Positions 6,495-11,110 of a DNA stretch of 64,000 nt are shown piece by piece. How positions within the stretch are numbered: position 1 is the stretch's first letter; each line of letters begins with the position of its first letter. Made by a program: the position numbers and the translations under genes. This DNA is from a phage. Where the stretch lies: NCBI GenBank assembly GCA_024614665.1, contig GCA_024614665.1_4861.1. One strand, given 5' to 3'. The notes beneath the pieces were generated by a model. It was not told where the DNA came from, did not search any database, and saw only the letters and a program-made list of their open reading frames with translations.

Positions 6495-7159
6495 TCCGGG
6501 CGTCCTAAGTTGTTACCGATGTGCATTGCTTTAAAGTACGAAGACCATGTACGCGGTGCTTTTGAACTGGTCCGCTCAGCCCCTTCCAGGTTGATGCGAC
6601 CTTTACCGGTTTGCCGTAGCGATTGATAGAACGCACGTTGTAACGTATCGTTACCACCACGCGCCCACAGGAACTCCTGGAGCGTTGAGTCGTGTCCATC
6701 CGAGTACATGATGTACGCTTCTGGAAACGAAACACCTGAAGCTTTGGAAGGCCCTACTACCTGACCTGAGAGTTTATCGCGGACTTTATCGTTCTTCGCC
6801 ACCGCCATTTTCTTCTCTTGCATCTGCGTCTGGCGACGTGCAGGTAAACGGAAGACTAAATGGGGGTAACGGGTACGCTGCAGGATACCGGTTTTCGGTT
6901 CCGTGAGCCACAGGCGCTGACACAAGTTCAGTCCCATCGCTTCGCAAATTTTAATATTGCGCATATGGTCAATTTTGACCTTGCCACCAGTTGGGTTGTA
7001 AACAGGCAACCCTTCGCGCAGACGATTGAACTCTTCGTCAGACATTCGCGAGAAAGCGCGCTTGGCAGCTTCCGCGTTAATCCCGGTCGGGTCAACTAAG
7101 TTCAGTAACTGTAAAGCATAAGCTTCTGCTTTTTTTCGCCGTGCCGGGTCTAATCTCAT
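6491..7159 (-). CDS. hypothetical protein (222 aa)
   Basis: Long ORF in operon-like array. Confidence 0.45.
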   Translation of the reverse strand: MRLDPARRKKAEAYALQLLNLVDPTGINAEAAKRAFSRMSDEEFNRLREGLPVYNPTGGKVKIDHMRNIKICEAMGLNLCQRLWLTEPKTGILQRTRYPHLVFRLPARRQTQMQEKKMAVAKNDKVRDKLSGQVVGPSKASGVSFPEAYIMYSDGHDSTLQEFLWARGGNDTLQRAFYQSLRQTGKGRINLEGAERTSSKAPRTWSSYFKAMHIGNNLGRPE

Positions 7160-7431
7160 TTTTTCATCCTCTCACGGAGCACTGGAAGAACCACACGTTC
7201 CAGGTCTTCAATCCAGTACGGGATATCTTCATTGTGTTCAGGCACACCGACCGCATCAACCTTCGGTTTATCATTAATCAGGTTGCCGTAGTGGGCATTT
7301 ACCTGATGACTAAATTCAGACAGTGCATGTCGCGGTGCTGAGAACTCGTTATGGAACGCAGTGCTAAGCTCCTGGCTAATGCCAGCGAGGCCCAGACAGA
7401 GACGCTCTACAATATCTTTCTGATAACGCAT
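7156..7431 (-). CDS. hypothetical protein (91 aa)
   Basis: Small ORF with 4-nt overlap to downstream gene. Confidence 0.35.
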   Translation of the reverse strand: MRYQKDIVERLCLGLAGISQELSTAFHNEFSAPRHALSEFSHQVNAHYGNLINDKPKVDAVGVPEHNEDIPYWIEDLERVVLPVLRERMKK

Positions 7432-7474: not shown

Positions 7475-8968
7475 TTATTTCTTCTTAGTCAAGAACTTCG
7501 GTTCCAGACCATCCACGGCCATCGCTAGTAATGACATTGCTGTTAAACAACGCTTACCACCTTTGACTTCCTGATCCTTGAACATCCAGTATTCCACCGT
7601 ATTGTCCAGAATTTCATTCCAGTCCCACTTTTCGTCGATAACCTTATAAAGCTCCGCCGGTGAGAGATGATATTTCATTTCCAGTCGGTGGTAGTTGTTC
7701 TGCATATACGCTAACGCAGCAGTGATTTCCAATGCCCTACGTAAACGCGGATTGCTGTCACACATGTCGCGAATCGTGGTACGCATGAAAGATGTACCAG
7801 GTAACAAATCGAGGGTATAATTAGCACCACTACGTTTGTAGCCCCATTCATCTTTCAGTGTGTCGCTCAGGTAATGCCACAGAGAGAGGTGATAAAGCAG
7901 ACCCATCTCCTGTGAGAAGACCATTTTGAACTTAACGCCTGTGTGACCACCTTTCGCACGGTACTGCGTGAAGACGATTTCTTTCAGGTCGTTTACCGAA
8001 GCATTCATCGCTTTTGAACGCGCAGTCGGGTATTTCTCTTCGTTTACACCGGTCTTCGCGTTGTAAGTCTGATCCTGCTTCAACTCACCAGACTTGGTTG
8101 CAACCAGCAGGGAGTTAGTTAAGAACGACAACTGACGACGCGGAATACCCGCAAACTTCAAATCATCGCCAGCATCGTCTAGCAGTTTACCGTTCGCTTT
8201 CGGTCCACCGCGACCGCCGGCAGCCATCGCCTTACCAGCATCGTCGGCCAGTTGAGCAACAAAGCCCATGTAGAAACCGCCACGCGCGAATGCAGATGGC
8301 CAACGACTCATCATGTTAGACTTTTGCAGCGCGTCGTGGGCGTTCAGGATGTTCTGTTCGGAGTCACCGACTTCTGATTTGGCATGTTTCTCTTCCAGAG
8401 AAGAGGTGTGCCATTCAGACAGGGAGTCAATCGAGTACAACCACGGGTCGAGAATCTTTTTCGCAGAGCGGCGAATTGGGTCCGGGAACGGCGTTTCGCG
8501 CGCTTTACCAGCCATATACTCTTTGAAACGTTTTTCGACTTCATCACGAATATAGGCAGAGTAATATTCTTCACCTGCCATGATATCCGAGCCAACCATG
8601 TTGTAACGACCTTCGTGGATCAGGTCCAGCACGCCGCCTGTTGGTGATACTTCTAATCCGTTTGCTTTCGCAGCGGAGATGTACCCCGTTTCCAGACGAC
8701 TTAATGCTGCCGTAACTTCGGTATCGTATTTCGATCCCCAGGCTGCATTATAACGTTGCAGAATCATGAAAATGCAGAAGTCTAATAAGGTAGACTTAAA
8801 AGTGTTCCCACGACCTGCGAAGCCCATGATGTGGGCAAAACCACCGTTGAGGTAGTACAAACCATCTTCCCCGCGCTCGTAGTTACCGAGAGCGTGGTCC
8901 ATGATGGTATATACGTTAAAACGAGGGCGAATTACTTCACCCATGACTTGTTTAGCTGGACCTGCCAT
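7475..8968 (-). CDS. putative RecA/UvsX-family recombinase-like ATPase (497 aa)
   Basis: N-terminal P-loop-like segment GFAGRGNTFKSTLLDFCIFMILQRY, which I recall resembles the T4 UvsX Walker A region (AGPSKSFKS...YMRQY); rest unassigned. Confidence 0.4.
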   Translation of the reverse strand: MAGPAKQVMGEVIRPRFNVYTIMDHALGNYERGEDGLYYLNGGFAHIMGFAGRGNTFKSTLLDFCIFMILQRYNAAWGSKYDTEVTAALSRLETGYISAAKANGLEVSPTGGVLDLIHEGRYNMVGSDIMAGEEYYSAYIRDEVEKRFKEYMAGKARETPFPDPIRRSAKKILDPWLYSIDSLSEWHTSSLEEKHAKSEVGDSEQNILNAHDALQKSNMMSRWPSAFARGGFYMGFVAQLADDAGKAMAAGGRGGPKANGKLLDDAGDDLKFAGIPRRQLSFLTNSLLVATKSGELKQDQTYNAKTGVNEEKYPTARSKAMNASVNDLKEIVFTQYRAKGGHTGVKFKMVFSQEMGLLYHLSLWHYLSDTLKDEWGYKRSGANYTLDLLPGTSFMRTTIRDMCDSNPRLRRALEITAALAYMQNNYHRLEMKYHLSPAELYKVIDEKWDWNEILDNTVEYWMFKDQEVKGGKRCLTAMSLLAMAVDGLEPKFLTKKK

Positions 8969-8983
8969 TTAGCGCTCCGTCAA

Positions 8984-9283
8984 TTAGCGTTTTTTCAGTG
9001 GGAGTAACAGACGACGTTTATGCCAAACTTCGAAATGCATTTCTGCCCACTCGGTGACTTGATTGTCATCCTTAGGATTGATGTTAGAAATGCTTTTGAA
9101 GCGGTTACGGTTACGTTCGTCGATTTCGATTTCTAGAACGCGCTTACCATCAGCACGAGTGGTCACGTTCAGGATTTTACCAACCACGATAGGACTACCA
9201 TCGGCATTCTTCTTCGTCGGGGTGGTGTAAATCTCAGGTTCGATACGAGAGGTTAAAGCACGAGTCAGTAATTTGATTCTCAT
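8984..9283 (-). CDS. hypothetical protein (99 aa)
   Basis: Small ORF directly upstream of the RecA-like gene on same strand. Confidence 0.4.
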   Translation of the reverse strand: MRIKLLTRALTSRIEPEIYTTPTKKNADGSPIVVGKILNVTTRADGKRVLEIEIDERNRNRFKSISNINPKDDNQVTEWAEMHFEVWHKRRLLLPLKKR

Positions 9284-9381: not shown

Positions 9382-10137
9382 ATGAATGTTAATCCACTTG
9401 CAGCGTTGTCGGGCTTTGTTGCCAAAGCATCCACGATTCTGCCTAAAGCCTTTAGCGGCTCTCAACAGGAACTCGCGCTGACCACCTATGACGACATGTC
9501 TGATGTGTCCAAGTGGATGCAGCAAGAGAAGTTTTTAAACTTTACCGGAATGCTTGTACCCGTACCTCCGGGCTTCAACACGTATGTGATGGACCACATA
9601 GAACGGTTGGAATCTGTATGGGCTGTGCTCCAGAAGATTCAGGAAGGGGTTTTAACACCCATCGATAAACGTTTCGGTGCGATGACCCATGACCTGGGCA
9701 TGTTAACTCTGCCGATTGGGTTTAAGTTCAAAGACCTGAACTACCCGCTGAAAAATATCAATCCAAAAGATCTGGTTGAGAAACTGGCGAAGTCGTATAC
9801 CAACAACGTCATTGACCAGCGTCCGATTGAAAAGACCTACCACAGCGCAGGCGAGATCGATGTTGCATTTAATCGTGCCAAAGCGCTGAACCTGGAAGTG
9901 ACTAAGAAACTTCAGAAAAGTATTGACCGTACAGTTGAAAGCATCAATGTCTCTGTGGATATTATCTCTAATTCACAAGTCCATCCTAATGTGGCGGCAG
10001 AGTTAGTGAAAATGGCTGACATGGGTGCTGACTGGGTTGAGCTGTTCGGACTTTTTATGAAACAGATTAACGAACTGACAGAATGTCTGAACGTAACTGG
10101 TGATCGCCTCAAGACCCTGAAAGCAAACAAAAAATAA
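9382..10137 (+). CDS. hypothetical protein (251 aa)
   Basis: ATG start; followed by strong hairpin terminator at 10147-10188. Confidence 0.5.
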   Translation: MNVNPLAALSGFVAKASTILPKAFSGSQQELALTTYDDMSDVSKWMQQEKFLNFTGMLVPVPPGFNTYVMDHIERLESVWAVLQKIQEGVLTPIDKRFGAMTHDLGMLTLPIGFKFKDLNYPLKNINPKDLVEKLAKSYTNNVIDQRPIEKTYHSAGEIDVAFNRAKALNLEVTKKLQKSIDRTVESINVSVDIISNSQVHPNVAAELVKMADMGADWVELFGLFMKQINELTECLNVTGDRLKTLKANKK

Positions 10138-10146
10138 AACGTGATA

Positions 10147-10188
10147 CCTCCCACCTACCGTAACTGGTAGGTGGGAGGGTTTTATTTT
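10147..10188 (+). terminator. intrinsic terminator
   Basis: 13-bp GC-rich stem cctcccacctacc/ggtaggtgggagg then TTTTATTTT. Confidence 0.6.
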
Positions 10189-11110
10189 AAACGGTAAGGA
10201 AACCACGAACGAGCGTTGGTGGAATCCATCTTACGACTTTCTGGCGTACGCCATCGCGCGGACCTTTCCAGAAAGTGTGCCAATGTGCACGCCGCATATG
10301 TGCTTTACGACCACCTTCTCTTAATCCGCTCGTGGTTGTTCCGTACTGATTGAGATAGCGTTCCTGTTCGTTTATGGTTGAAATAACAATTGGCTTAGAT
10401 CGTGGCTGGACATGATAATCCGGCATCGTTTTTCTTTTCTTCCTTTTTGGGTATACCGTAGGTTCGGGATAACGCGGGATGAGAGAACAGGTAAAGAGCA
10501 TTGCAGTGACTAGCCGATGGGGTGCCTCTGTCCATTCATCGAACACCCCACTAAGTTTAACAAAGCCGTTCCCCACATCTACGATTTCTGCGGCATCAAC
10601 CTGTACACAATCGACCGCGTTACGAAAAATACTTAGAATCAAACAGTCTTTTCCTTGAATCCACCGCCTGGAGATATAATAAACCAATTCCAGTTTTTCA
10701 CCAGTCTGCTGTATGATCTCTAGGGGGAATTCTACGGTCCATCCTGGGATTTTATCAAACCAGTCACGCGGCAATTCATCGAGAAGATCGGAGCCTATCA
10801 TCTGTTCAAACACAAAAGAGTCACCGATAAGTAACACACCACCATAACGGTAACCGTGTGCGATAGTGGCGTAAAGATTTTGAACTTCAAGGTTTTTCGG
10901 AGTAGACGATAAGAAATATTCCGGTGGAATGAACCGCTGACCTATGCACCCCTCGTGCTCAGACGCATATTTCTCAACCAAGTTGATGCCCCTGGAACGT
11001 TCATTTGCTTTACTCAACATGACAAGGAAATCACCATCGGTTTTCACTCTATCAGCATCAATACCCAGCAATTTTAATGCTACTTTATCACTTTCACTAA
11101 TGTTAAACAT
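10187..11110 (-). CDS. hypothetical protein (307 aa)
   Basis: Long ORF; upstream has terminator hairpin, AATCGACTAT motif, AAGGTG RBS. Confidence 0.5.
   Translation of the reverse strand: MFNISESDKVALKLLGIDADRVKTDGDFLVMLSKANERSRGINLVEKYASEHEGCIGQRFIPPEYFLSSTPKNLEVQNLYATIAHGYRYGGVLLIGDSFVFEQMIGSDLLDELPRDWFDKIPGWTVEFPLEIIQQTGEKLELVYYISRRWIQGKDCLILSIFRNAVDCVQVDAAEIVDVGNGFVKLSGVFDEWTEAPHRLVTAMLFTCSLIPRYPEPTVYPKRKKRKTMPDYHVQPRSKPIVISTINEQERYLNQYGTTTSGLREGGRKAHMRRAHWHTFWKGPRDGVRQKVVRWIPPTLVRGFLTV

What the first reader, a model, noticed from the sequence alone, without database searches (positions are those of the whole stretch)
7475..9283. RecA/UvsX-like P-loop protein with unusually long C-terminal region
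Seen: 497-aa protein whose N-terminal region (GFAGRGNTFKSTLLDFCIFMILQRY) resembles the UvsX Walker A neighbourhood as I recall it, but the protein is about 100 aa longer than T4 UvsX and the remainder has no motif I can place; a 99-aa ORF follows. Inference: divergent recombinase, possibly with a mediator encoded next to it.
Basis: partly seen in the sequence, partly recalled or inferred. Interest (0 to 1): 0.35.

Follow-up and report, generated by a model that had tools for sequence, protein, structure and literature searches.

The report
Jumbo-phage nuclear UvsX/RecA-like recombinase gene
This gene encodes the already-known, highly diverged RecA/UvsX-type DNA recombinase of SPN3US-like "nucleus-forming" giant phages; the small gene beside it shows no sign of being a recombination helper.

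Summary
The two ORFs are real: 497 aa (7475-8968, minus) and 99 aa (8984-9283, minus). The window is a SPN3US-type Salmonella jumbo phage, 99% identical to SaP7. The 497-aa protein is 100% identical to SPN3US gp216, already published as a diverged UvsX homologue. It is 88% identical to Erwinia phage Asesino gp238, which microscopy placed in the phage nucleus. It is a full-length homologue of PhiPA3 gp175, which is annotated as similar to phiKZ gp152/Nlp1.

The RecA fold is confirmed. The AlphaFold2 model is confident (pLDDT 90, pTM 0.91), and its top 50 PDB matches are all bacterial RecA (E down to 2.5e-12). It matches PHROG 97 "UvsX-like recombinase" (E 2.8e-55), the same family T4 UvsX matches. 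The catalytic set is conserved in 83-84 of 84 homologues: P-loop K58, E84, Walker-B D181, Q239/His switch, and R337/K339.

The 106 residues beyond T4 UvsX are not a C-terminal tail. There are two internal expansions (+46 and +47), +6 between them, +15 at the C-terminus and -8 at the N-terminus. The RecA/UvsX N-terminal helix is missing.

The 99-aa ORF lies upstream of the gene, not after it. It is confined to this phage clade, matches no known family or fold, and is absent from phiKZ-type loci, so the mediator idea is unsupported.

Verdict: an ordinary, already-known gene.

The parts
7475..8968 (-). uvsX/recA-like recombinase gene, 497 aa. It is SPN3US gp216 (YP_009153510) and the counterpart of phiKZ gp152/Nlp1, PhiPA3 gp175 and Asesino gp238.
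   Evidence: ORF. 100% identical to the SPN3US product. phrog_97 E 2.8e-55. AF2 pLDDT 90.2. Foldseek top 50 hits are all RecA. 88% identical to Asesino gp238. 27% identity, E 4e-43, to PhiPA3 gp175.
8789..8815 (-). Walker A / P-loop GRGNTFKST (aa 52-60, Lys58). It is the UvsX type, with Phe before the Lys.
   Evidence: Aligned to T4 UvsX GPSKSFKSN by HMMER and hhalign. K58 is present in 83 of 84 homologues.
8717..8728 (-). YDTE (aa 81-84). Glu84 is the catalytic glutamate at the end of strand beta-2.
   Evidence: D82 and E84 are invariant in 84 sequences. Aligned to T4 UvsX YDSE 89-92. The Lys-to-Glu spacing is 26 residues in both proteins.
8444..8716 (-). Expanded segment between the catalytic Glu and Walker B (aa 85-175). 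It is 46 residues longer than in T4 UvsX. The model has extra helices and loops at 103-118 and a beta-hairpin at 156-173.
   Evidence: Inter-motif distance is 97 against 51 in T4. The family range is 82-102, so the expansion is family-wide. Secondary structure from the AF2 model. The exact insertion boundaries are inferred.
8420..8443 (-). Walker B strand plus DSL (aa 176-183, Asp181).
   Evidence: D181 is invariant and S182/S184 nearly invariant. It sits at the end of model strand 176-181. It corresponds to T4 UvsX FIDSL D143 by motif; this step is inferred.
8351..8377 (-). L1-like segment SEVGDSEQN (aa 198-206) before the long helix 204-221.
   Evidence: G201 is nearly invariant; N206 and K216 are invariant. 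The resemblance to the RecA L1 sequence 'GDS' is from my knowledge of RecA, so this is an inference.
8159..8254 (-). Switch residue Gln239 followed by the L2-like loop (aa 239-270; residues 247-261 are disordered in the model).
   Evidence: This column is His in 73 and Gln in 11 of 84 homologues. T4 UvsX has His195 at the matching INH motif. Residues 247-261 are the only segment with pLDDT below 50.
7988..8083 (-). Loop-rich stretch (aa 296-327). With the long L2 region it makes the switch-to-hairpin segment 47 residues longer than in T4 UvsX.
   Evidence: Distance is 98 against 51 in T4; the family median is 82.5. Model secondary structure.
7913..7987 (-). Beta-hairpin aa 328-352 carrying Arg337-x-Lys339. 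This is the predicted trans-acting basic pair at the subunit interface.
   Evidence: R337, K339 and G341 are invariant, with 'RK' in 84 of 84. The pattern matches T4 UvsX EK246-S-R248. The role is inferred from my knowledge of RecA and UvsX.
7478..7894 (-). C-terminal domain (aa 359-497): a helix, three short strands and several helices. It is about 15 residues longer than the matching part of T4 UvsX.
   Evidence: AF2 model. phrog_97 aligns query aa 463 to profile position 347 and T4 aa 364 to position 355. This region is the best-conserved part across other jumbo-phage groups.
8984..9283 (-). 99-aa basic ORF (pI 10.2), immediately upstream in the same transcription direction. It is a clade-restricted orphan (phrog_10750, homologue of Asesino gp237). 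There is no evidence it belongs to the recombinase system.
7156..7431 (-). 91-aa ORF immediately downstream (phrog_6181, unknown function).
   Evidence: BLAST finds no similarity to the small ORFs at the same position in PhiPA3, Goslar or the phiKZ-type phage Bobae.
6491..7159 (-). Conserved downstream neighbour: a 222-aa protein deposited as 'RNA polymerase beta subunit' or 'virion structural protein'. It anchors the synteny shared with PhiPA3 gp172, which is annotated as similar to phiKZ gp149.
   Evidence: phrog_3233 E 9e-94. 34% identity to PhiPA3 gp172. Same gene order.
9382..10137 (+). Divergently transcribed 251-aa gene, weakly related to the reverse-strand genes at the same position in Bobae, Goslar and PhiPA3 (PhiPA3 gp176 is annotated as similar to phiKZ gp153). 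It is the upstream synteny anchor.
   Evidence: phrog_4682. Weak BLAST matches to the Bobae and Goslar reverse-strand genes, E 1e-6 and 1e-5, and to PhiPA3 gp176, E 0.018.

Best explanation
The 497-aa gene encodes the RecA/UvsX-family recombinase of a SPN3US-type, nucleus-forming (phiKZ-like) jumbo phage. It is the counterpart of phiKZ gp152/Nlp1, PhiPA3 gp175 and Asesino gp238.

Shown here:
- It has a RecA-fold ATPase core and C-terminal domain.
- It keeps a UvsX-type P-loop (K58), the catalytic Glu84, Walker-B Asp181, a Gln/His switch at the start of a disordered L2-like loop, and an invariant Arg337-x-Lys339 hairpin.
- It sits in the gene order conserved among these phages.

Shown by others for orthologues:
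- The protein is imported into the phage nucleus.
- In phiKZ it is non-essential but strongly fitness-conferring, and it is needed to survive the CBASS nuclease NucC.

Inferred:
- It binds ssDNA as an ATP-dependent filament inside the phage nucleus. There it catalyses homologous pairing and strand exchange for repair of broken phage DNA, and probably for recombination-dependent replication, as T4 UvsX does.
- Relative to T4 UvsX it lacks the N-terminal helix and has two family-wide internal expansions. The subunit-subunit contacts, and possibly the surface recognised for nuclear import, therefore probably differ from those of classical RecA and UvsX.

The adjacent 99-aa ORF is a clade-specific gene of unknown role, not a demonstrable mediator.
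For: Genome identity:
- 99.1% DNA identity to SaP7, and the protein is 100% identical to the SPN3US product.
- SPN3US gp216 is named a diverged UvsX homologue in PMC5694885.

Sequence profiles:
- phrog_97 'UvsX-like recombinase' matches at E 2.8e-55. T4 UvsX (E 9e-105), PhiPA3 gp175 and Goslar gp193 match the same profile.
- The family profile searched against the PDB gives T4 UvsX 3IO5 as best hit (E 0.022), and every other hit is RadA.

Structure:
- AF2 model has pLDDT 90.2 and pTM 0.91.
- Foldseek against the PDB returns RecA for all top 50 hits, E from 2.5e-12, with TM 0.6-0.7 normalised to RecA length.
- BFVD hits are phage UvsX/RecA proteins; DnaB helicases score much weaker.

Conserved residues:
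- D82, E84, D181, N206, K216, R337 and K339 are invariant.
- K58 is present in 83 of 84, and the switch column is His or Gln in 84 of 84.

Synteny with PhiPA3, Goslar, a phiKZ-type phage and Asesino.

Orthologues:
- 88% identity to Asesino gp238, which is nuclear by GFP (PMC11724907).
- PhiPA3 and phiKZ RecA are nuclear.
- PCH45 UvsX is nuclear and non-essential.
- phiKZ delta-nlp1 replicates slowly, makes small plaques and is NucC-sensitive (PMC12676376).
Against: - No Pfam (RecA, Rad51) or NCBIfam model matches at E<=1. phmmer against the PDB finds nothing.
- hhalign to T4 UvsX aligns only aa 44-95, with 23% probability.
- The RecA/UvsX N-terminal oligomerisation helix is absent.
- I found no paper in the searchable library reporting ATPase, filament or strand-exchange activity for any member of this jumbo-phage family.
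- Nuclear import and function have not been tested in SPN3US or SaP7 themselves.
Confidence: 0.9

Rival explanations
1. It is a RecA-fold ATPase of another functional class, such as a DnaB-type helicase, a KaiC/RadA(Sms)-like protein or a loader, rather than a strand-exchange recombinase.
For: Foldseek against BFVD also returns DnaB-type helicases at E 1e-8 to 1e-6. Recombinase Pfam models do not match. The N-terminal filament helix is missing.
Against: - Helicase matches have TM of only about 0.3, against 0.6-0.7 for RecA, and all 50 best PDB hits are RecA.
- All sequence-profile hits are recombinases, UvsX and RadA.
- The UvsX-type 'FKS' P-loop, the His/Gln switch ahead of a disordered L2 loop, and the R-x-K hairpin are recombinase features.
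- The phiKZ deletion phenotype resembles a T4 uvsX mutant.
Confidence: 0.05
2. The 497-aa recombinase and the adjacent 99-aa protein form a recombinase-mediator pair, with the 99-aa protein as a UvsY/RecO-like loader.
For: - The two genes are co-oriented and 15 nt apart.
- The adjacency is kept in Asesino (gp237-gp238) and in Erwinia relatives down to 44-57% identity.
- The 99-aa protein is basic, pI 10.2.
- In one related clade a 143-aa domain is fused in frame to the recombinase N-terminus at the same position.
Against: - No match to Pfam, which I recall includes a UvsY model, at E<=1, and none to NCBIfam.
- Only 6 relatives among 1.84 billion representatives.
- Present in 59 phage records against 301 with the recombinase.
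- Absent from the same slot in PhiPA3, Goslar and phiKZ-type phages.
- The weak model is mostly beta-strand with no significant fold match, whereas PMC7824862 describes UvsY as alpha-helical.
- The fused 143-aa domain is unrelated to it.
- The comparative survey PMC7824862 states that UvsY is restricted to its group 2 jumbo phages, while the RecA homologue is found in all three groups.
Confidence: 0.07
3. The protein has lost recombinase activity and survives mainly as a structural or import-related nuclear protein, that is, a pseudo-enzyme.
For: Extreme divergence from RecA and UvsX. Loss of the N-terminal helix. The family is used experimentally mostly as an import tag.
Against: Every catalytic position is invariant or nearly so across 84 homologues that go down to 24% identity, which indicates selection on ATP hydrolysis. 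The phiKZ mutant shows a DNA-damage tolerance defect.
Confidence: 0.03

Closest known systems
phiKZ gp152 (Nlp1), PhiPA3 gp175, 201phi2-1 gp237, Asesino gp238 and PCH45 gp72: the nucleus-imported RecA/UvsX-like recombinase of nucleus-forming jumbo phages (Chimalliviridae)
   Same: - Full-length homology: 88% to Asesino gp238, and 27% with E 4e-43 to PhiPA3 gp175.
- Similar length: family members range from 404 to 635 aa, median about 480.
- Same motif set and same internal expansions.
- Same gene order: RNase H ... reverse-strand gene (PhiPA3 gp176, annotated as similar to phiKZ gp153) - recombinase - small ORFs - gene deposited as RNA polymerase beta subunit.
   Different: - The switch residue is Gln (as in RecA) in this clade, against His in 73 of 84 family members.
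- This clade has about 30 more residues than the family consensus.
- It has its own N-terminal peptide, MAGPAKQVMGEVIRPRFN, in place of the phi-x-x-A-P motif of phiKZ-like members.
- A 99-aa ORF is inserted upstream.
Bacteriophage T4 UvsX (PDB 3IO5)
   Same: - Same PHROG family (phrog_97).
- P-loop with Phe-Lys-Ser, followed by Y-D-S/T-E with identical 26-residue spacing.
- Walker B 'DSL'.
- A His/Gln switch.
- A basic pair in the following beta-hairpin.
- A dispensable but fitness-conferring role in repair.
   Different: - 106 aa longer: +46 between the catalytic Glu and Walker B, +6 from Walker B to the switch, +47 between the switch and the basic hairpin, +15 at the C-terminus, and -8 at the N-terminus.
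- No N-terminal helix.
- T4 UvsX has an acidic C-terminal tail, whereas this protein ends in LTKKK.
- No UvsY partner was detected.
- Sequence similarity is detectable only with profiles.
Bacterial RecA (for example E. coli 3CMT, P. aeruginosa 8S70)
   Same: Best structural matches to the predicted model (E down to 2.5e-12, TM 0.6-0.7 on RecA length), covering both the ATPase core and the C-terminal domain. Gln at the switch position.
   Different: Only 11-15% identity. Not recognised by the RecA Pfam or TIGRFAM models. The P-loop lacks the Gly before Lys. The N-terminal helix is missing. There are large insertions.
Long-form 'UvsX' proteins of other jumbo phages (Aeromonas phage D6, Klebsiella phage Miami, Erwinia phage AH04)
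   Same: Proteins of 485-491 aa whose predicted structures superpose on the whole model (TM 0.81-0.86, 24-25% identity).
   Different: By tblastn only the C-terminal third (aa ~313-497) aligns. I did not check whether those phages form a nucleus.

Membership tests
RecA/Rad51/UvsX recombinase superfamily | RecA-fold alpha/beta ATPase core | tested here: met
   AF2 pLDDT 90.2, pTM 0.91. The 50 best Foldseek PDB hits are all RecA, E 2.5e-12 to 4e-9.
RecA/Rad51/UvsX recombinase superfamily | Walker A P-loop with conserved Lys | tested here: met
   GRGNTFKST, aa 52-60. K58 is present in 83 of 84 homologues. It aligns to the T4 UvsX P-loop.
RecA/Rad51/UvsX recombinase superfamily | Catalytic Glu after strand beta-2 (RecA E96, UvsX E92) | tested here: met
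   E84 is invariant. YDTE aligns to T4 YDSE, with identical spacing from the P-loop Lys.
RecA/Rad51/UvsX recombinase superfamily | Walker B Asp at the end of a hydrophobic strand | tested here: met
   D181 is invariant at the end of model strand 176-181. Motif is LYSIDSL against T4 VFIDSL. Placed by motif and model, not by a pairwise alignment.
RecA/Rad51/UvsX recombinase superfamily | Gln/His gamma-phosphate sensor leading into the flexible DNA-binding loop L2 | tested here: met
   The column is His in 73 and Gln in 11 of 84. It is followed by the only disordered segment, 247-261.
RecA/Rad51/UvsX recombinase superfamily | Trans-acting basic residues in the beta-hairpin after the core (RecA K248/K250, UvsX K246/R248) | tested here: met
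   R337-x-K339 is present in 84 of 84, in hairpin 328-352. The equivalence rests on pattern, and the role is inferred.
RecA/Rad51/UvsX recombinase superfamily | N-terminal oligomerisation element (a helix in RecA and UvsX) | tested here: not met
   Only about 17 residues precede the conserved core, and they are coil in the model. The phrog_97 match starts at profile position 39, against 20 for T4 UvsX. A short peptide motif may substitute for the helix, but this is untested.
RecA/Rad51/UvsX recombinase superfamily | DNA-dependent ATPase, helical filament on ssDNA, strand exchange | not testable with these tools
   I found no biochemical report for this jumbo-phage family in the library. The genetics in phiKZ are consistent with these activities.
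Pfam RecA (PF00154) / Rad51 (PF08423) and NCBIfam recA (TIGR02012) sequence models | Score above the curated threshold | tested here: not met
   No hit at E<=1 in Pfam or NCBIfam. T4 UvsX itself scores only 56 bits against a cutoff of 325 for TIGR02012.
PHROG 97 'UvsX-like recombinase' | Significant match to the family profile that also contains T4 UvsX | tested here: met
   E 2.8e-55 over aa 6-463. T4 UvsX matches at E 9.4e-105.
Chimalliviridae nuclear RecA-like protein (phiKZ Nlp1/gp152 group) | Full-length orthology and conserved genomic position | tested here: met
Chimalliviridae nuclear RecA-like protein (phiKZ Nlp1/gp152 group) | Import into the phage nucleus during infection | not testable with these tools
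   Shown by microscopy for Asesino gp238, which is 88% identical, and for PhiPA3, phiKZ and PCH45. Not shown for SPN3US or SaP7.
UvsY-type recombination mediator (for the 99-aa ORF) | Sequence or fold similarity to UvsY, or to RecO/RecR/Rad52-type mediators | tested here: not met
   No Pfam or NCBIfam hit at E<=1. No Foldseek hit at E<=0.001, though the model is of low confidence at pLDDT 64.
UvsY-type recombination mediator (for the 99-aa ORF) | Co-occurrence with the recombinase across the family | tested here: not met
   59 records against 301. Absent from the slot in PhiPA3, Goslar and phiKZ-type phages.

The most novel reading that the evidence does not exclude
This jumbo-phage recombinase family may assemble its filament through a non-RecA interface. 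It lacks the N-terminal helix. Many phiKZ-like members carry a fixed-position phi-x-x-A-P peptide whose spacing to the P-loop resembles, as I recall it, the Rad51/RadA F-x-x-A polymerisation motif. Two family-wide insertions of about 40 residues decorate the core. These insertions could also form the surface patch that licenses import into the phage nucleus. If so, it would be a UvsX lineage with Rad51-like polymerisation and an import-recognition module built into it.
Probability: 0.2. Interest if true: 0.45.

Novelty: already known. Interest (0 to 1): 0.12.

Why it matters
As a discovery it matters little. The gene is the published UvsX homologue of SPN3US (gp216), and its orthologues are the standard cargo marker for protein import into the phage nucleus.

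Three modest points come out of this check:
- It explains why domain databases miss the protein: Pfam and NCBIfam models fail, while PHROG and fold comparison succeed.
- It gives a residue-level map of the catalytic motifs and shows where the extra length really lies.
- It shows the family lacks the classical N-terminal filament helix. That is relevant to anyone who wants to study how recombination filaments form inside the phage nucleus, or which surface the import machinery recognises.

Tried and rejected
- Pfam and NCBIfam scans of the 497-aa, 99-aa and 91-aa proteins gave nothing useful.
- phmmer of the single sequence against the PDB gave only chance hits to Pks13 and ATP synthase delta, E > 1.
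- hhalign of the family profile against the single T4 UvsX sequence aligned only the P-loop-to-Glu stretch, with 23% probability. The remaining equivalences therefore had to be set by motifs and the model.
- For the 99-aa ORF, the word-indexed homologue search found 9 proteins and the exhaustive HMMER search found 6. A shallow-alignment AF2 model reached pLDDT 64. Foldseek gave no hit at E<=0.001, and the best hits were small MCE-like beta-barrels at E ~0.1, which I regard as meaningless.
- I tested whether the 143-aa N-terminal extension of the 635-aa relatives is a fused version of the 99-aa ORF, which would be a Rosetta-stone argument for partnership. It is not: blastp found nothing below E 2 and hhalign gave 0.2% probability. 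The extension has no copy in the window.
- I tested whether the 99-aa or 91-aa ORFs match the small ORFs flanking the recombinase gene in PhiPA3, Goslar or the phiKZ-type phage Bobae. No BLAST similarity was found.
- The sigma-70 promoter scan around the genes was no better than shuffled sequence.
- Literature searches for '201phi2-1 gp237 RecA' and for 'jumbo phage UvsX strand exchange' returned nothing in the searchable library.
Full report
OBSERVATION

The minus strand carries an ATG-to-stop ORF of 497 aa at 7475-8968 and a 99-aa ORF at 8984-9283. T4 UvsX, read from the T4 genome record, is 391 aa, so the protein is 106 aa longer.

One detail is reversed. Both genes are on the minus strand, so the 99-aa ORF lies immediately upstream of the large gene, 15 nt apart. 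Each ORF has a Shine-Dalgarno-like sequence in front of it.

WHERE THE WINDOW COMES FROM

The region is 99.1% identical to Salmonella phage SaP7 and 96-97.5% identical to SPN3US and its relatives (genus Seoulvirus). The 497-aa protein is 100% identical to the SPN3US product YP_009153510. That product is annotated 'hypothetical protein' in SPN3US, but 'putative UvsX protein' or 'UvsX-like recombinase' in SaP7 and the SPLA phages. Ali et al. 2017 (PMC5694885) already name SPN3US gp216 as a diverged homologue of T4 UvsX.

IS IT A RecA/UvsX-FOLD PROTEIN?

Curated domain libraries miss it:
- No Pfam or NCBIfam family matches at E<=1.
- phmmer against PDB sequences gives only chance hits.
- None of the 105 homologues found in 5.8 billion proteins has a precomputed Pfam domain.

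More sensitive evidence agrees that it is a recombinase:
- PHROG 97 'UvsX-like recombinase' matches at E 2.8e-55. T4 UvsX (E 9.4e-105), PhiPA3 gp175 (E 2.9e-57) and Goslar gp193 (E 1.8e-32) match the same profile.
- A profile of 84 homologues searched against the PDB returns T4 UvsX (3IO5) as best hit at E 0.022, and all ten other hits are RadA. The alignment pairs GRGNTFKST with GPSKSFKSN and YDTE with YDSE. hhalign reproduces this stretch.
- AlphaFold2 with the 84-sequence alignment gives a confident model: pLDDT 90.2, pTM 0.91, with only residues 247-261 disordered.
- The 50 best Foldseek matches of that model in the PDB are all bacterial RecA, with E from 2.5e-12 to 4e-9, TM 0.6-0.7 on RecA length and more than 400 alignment columns.
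- In the viral library the best matches are 485-491-aa phage proteins (TM 0.81-0.86), one of which is named 'UvsX protein' (Aeromonas phage D6). Ordinary phage RecA/UvsX proteins come next, and DnaB helicases are much weaker at TM about 0.3.

MOTIF MAP

Across 84 homologues, with identity to the query down to 24%, the conserved positions are these:
- Invariant: D82, E84, D181, N206, K216, R337, K339, G341 and several C-terminal residues.
- Nearly invariant: G52, N55 and K58.

Anchored on T4 UvsX:

| Feature | This protein | T4 UvsX |
|---|---|---|
| P-loop Lys | K58 | K66 |
| Catalytic Glu | E84 | E92 |
| Walker B Asp | D181 | D143 |
| Switch residue | Q239 | H195 |
| Basic pair | R337 / K339 | K246 / R248 |

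- The P-loop in both proteins has Phe where classical Walker A has Gly.
- The spacing from the P-loop Lys to the catalytic Glu is 26 residues in both.
- The switch column is His in 73 and Gln in 11 of 84 family members. Gln is the RecA state, from my knowledge of RecA Q194.
- The R-x-K pair sits in beta-hairpin 328-352.
- The disordered stretch 247-261 after the switch is where L2 lies in RecA. The VGDSEQN stretch (aa 200-206) before helix 204-221 resembles the RecA L1 'GDS' sequence. Both assignments are inferences from my knowledge of RecA.

The conservation of every catalytic position argues for an active, filament-dependent ATPase.

WHERE THE EXTRA LENGTH IS

| Segment | This protein | T4 UvsX | Difference | Family |
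|---|---|---|---|---|
| N-terminus to P-loop Lys | 58 | 66 | -8 | median 58 |
| Lys to catalytic Glu | 26 | 26 | 0 | median 26 |
| Glu to Walker B | 97 | 51 | +46 | 82-102 |
| Walker B to switch | 58 | 52 | +6 | median 58 |
| Switch to basic hairpin | 98 | 51 | +47 | median 82.5 |
| Basic hairpin to C-terminus | 158 | 143 | +15 | median 162 |

The PHROG alignment agrees: query aa 6-463 span profile positions 39-347, while T4 aa 1-364 span positions 20-355.

So the title 'unusually long C-terminal region' is inaccurate. Most of the excess is two internal expansions that are shared by the whole family.

The N-terminus is shorter than in T4 UvsX. Only about 17 residues precede the conserved core, and they are coil in the model. 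The RecA/UvsX N-terminal oligomerisation helix is therefore missing.

In phiKZ-like members this short peptide often carries phi-x-x-A-P at a fixed position. It occurs in 27 of 81 members, against a mean of 3.2 in shuffles, though the sequences are related so this is not a probability. The SPN3US clade instead has MAGPAKQVMGEVIRPRFN. Whether this peptide acts like the Rad51 F-x-x-A polymerisation motif is speculation that I could not test.

GENOMIC CONTEXT AND ORTHOLOGY

Full-length homologues at 25-30% identity occur in phiKZ-like phages of Pseudomonas, Erwinia, Klebsiella, Serratia, Vibrio, Ralstonia and Escherichia, 301 phage records in all.

The gene order is conserved in PhiPA3, Goslar, the phiKZ-type phage Bobae, Asesino and a metagenomic relative:
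1. RNase H.
2. A reverse-strand gene (PhiPA3 gp176, annotated as similar to phiKZ gp153).
3. The recombinase.
4. One or two small ORFs.
5. A gene deposited as RNA polymerase beta subunit (PhiPA3 gp172, annotated as similar to phiKZ gp149).

PhiPA3 gp175, annotated as similar to phiKZ gp152 and 201phi2-1 gp237, aligns over the full length at 27% identity, E 4e-43. Asesino gp238 is 88% identical.

WHAT IS KNOWN ABOUT THE ORTHOLOGUES (from the papers)

- PhiPA3 gp175 'RecA' localises inside the phage nucleus and was used as proximity-labelling bait (PMC10643120).
- PhiPA3 and phiKZ RecA are each imported into the other phage's nucleus (PMC11087766).
- Asesino UvsX gp238 is nuclear (PMC11724907).
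- PCH45 UvsX gp72 is nuclear, carries fused transposase into the nucleus, and is non-essential by Tn-seq.
- phiKZ gp152, named Nlp1, carries EcoRI into the nucleus when fused to it.
- A phiKZ nlp1 deletion replicates slowly, makes small plaques and becomes sensitive to the CBASS nuclease NucC. The authors interpret this as a recombinational repair role (PMC12676376).
- I found no paper in the library reporting strand exchange or a filament structure for this family.

MECHANISM

Shown: fold, motifs, orthology and synteny. Shown by others for orthologues: nuclear import and a repair-type fitness phenotype.

Inferred: the protein is made in the cytoplasm and imported into the chimallin-bounded phage nucleus. 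There it polymerises on ssDNA in an ATP-dependent manner and catalyses homology search and strand exchange. This would repair breaks in phage DNA and probably support recombination-dependent replication, as T4 UvsX does.

Because the N-terminal helix is absent and two expansions decorate the core, the protomer interface and the import-recognition surface are probably specific to this family.

THE 99-aa ORF

What supports a link to the recombinase:
- It is basic, pI 10.2.
- It stays adjacent to the recombinase gene in the SPN3US, Asesino and Erwinia clade, down to about 44% identity.

What argues against a mediator role:
- It belongs to phrog_10750, of unknown function.
- It occurs in only 59 phage records.
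- It has only 6 relatives among 1.84 billion representative proteins.
- It has no Pfam or NCBIfam match.
- It is absent from the equivalent slot in PhiPA3, Goslar and phiKZ-type phages.
- Its model is weak (pLDDT 64) and is mostly beta-strand with two helices, with no significant fold match. PMC7824862 describes T4 UvsY as alpha-helical.
- In one related clade the same slot is occupied by a 143-aa domain fused in frame to the recombinase. That domain is unrelated to the 99-aa family.
- The comparative survey PMC7824862 reports that UvsY is restricted to its group 2 jumbo phages, while the RecA homologue is found in all three groups.

The mediator proposal is therefore unsupported. The slot looks like a variable accessory position.

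VERDICT

However, it concerns a gene that is already identified in the literature and in several database records. The 'long C-terminal region' and 'mediator next to it' parts are not supported.

- Novelty: already known.
- Interest: low, 0.12.
- The only mildly new points are the residue-level map, the location of the insertions, and the missing N-terminal helix.

Noticed in passing
window 10187-11110 (-): This 307-aa ORF (phrog_6160, unknown function) is a variable cassette. It is annotated in SaP7 (99% identity) but is missing at this site from the SPN3US reference, where only about 60 bp separate the flanking genes. JN03 has a 40%-identical, unannotated version at the same place. Only the C-terminal ~50-100 residues are shared patchily with Erwinia, Dickeya, Klebsiella and Serratia jumbo phages. 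It accounts for the 85-86% coverage gap in the megablast hits.
   Followed up: partly
L007 4001-5908 (also L008 1117-3024); proteins P0023, P0024, P0026, P0027: A related clade encodes a 635-aa version of the recombinase. An extra, conserved ~143-aa N-terminal domain is fused in frame directly before the MAGPAK... start, in the slot where this window has the 99-aa ORF. The domain has no Pfam match, no copy in the window and no similarity to the 99-aa family.
   Followed up: partly
window 8915-8968 (-), aa 1-18 of the recombinase; alignment A1: The recombinase family lacks the RecA/UvsX N-terminal helix. Many phiKZ-like members carry phi-x-x-A-P-x-phi-R-P-x-phi-N at a fixed position (27 of 81, against a mean of 3.2 in shuffles). 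This is reminiscent of the Rad51/RadA F-x-x-A polymerisation motif. The SPN3US clade has a different conserved peptide.
   Followed up: partly
window 7475-9283; phage records LR5359xx (SPFM1, 6, 7, 8, 10, 12, 15, 20): In several SPFM Salmonella phage records, both the recombinase gene and the 99-aa gene appear broken into 3-7 tblastn pieces. They yield truncated or chimeric predicted proteins (P0030-32, P0042, P0045, P0110-114). These look like frameshift errors in those assemblies rather than biology.
   Followed up: no
window 10147-10178 (+): A strong terminator-like hairpin (14-bp stem with 9 G-C pairs, then a T-run) lies between the convergent 251-aa gene (9382-10137, +) and the 307-aa gene (10187-11110, -).
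   Followed up: no
window 7475-8968 (-), aa ~313-497: By tblastn, only the C-terminal third of the protein aligns (31-37% identity) to 'UvsX-like' proteins of another set of ~235-260-kb phages: Klebsiella Miami, Aeromonas D6, Erwinia AH04, Kosakonia Kc263 and Vibrio Aphrodite1. Yet the predicted structure of at least one of these, the Aeromonas phage D6 protein, superposes on the whole model (TM 0.81). The C-terminal domain is therefore the slowest-evolving part of this long-form recombinase.
   Followed up: no
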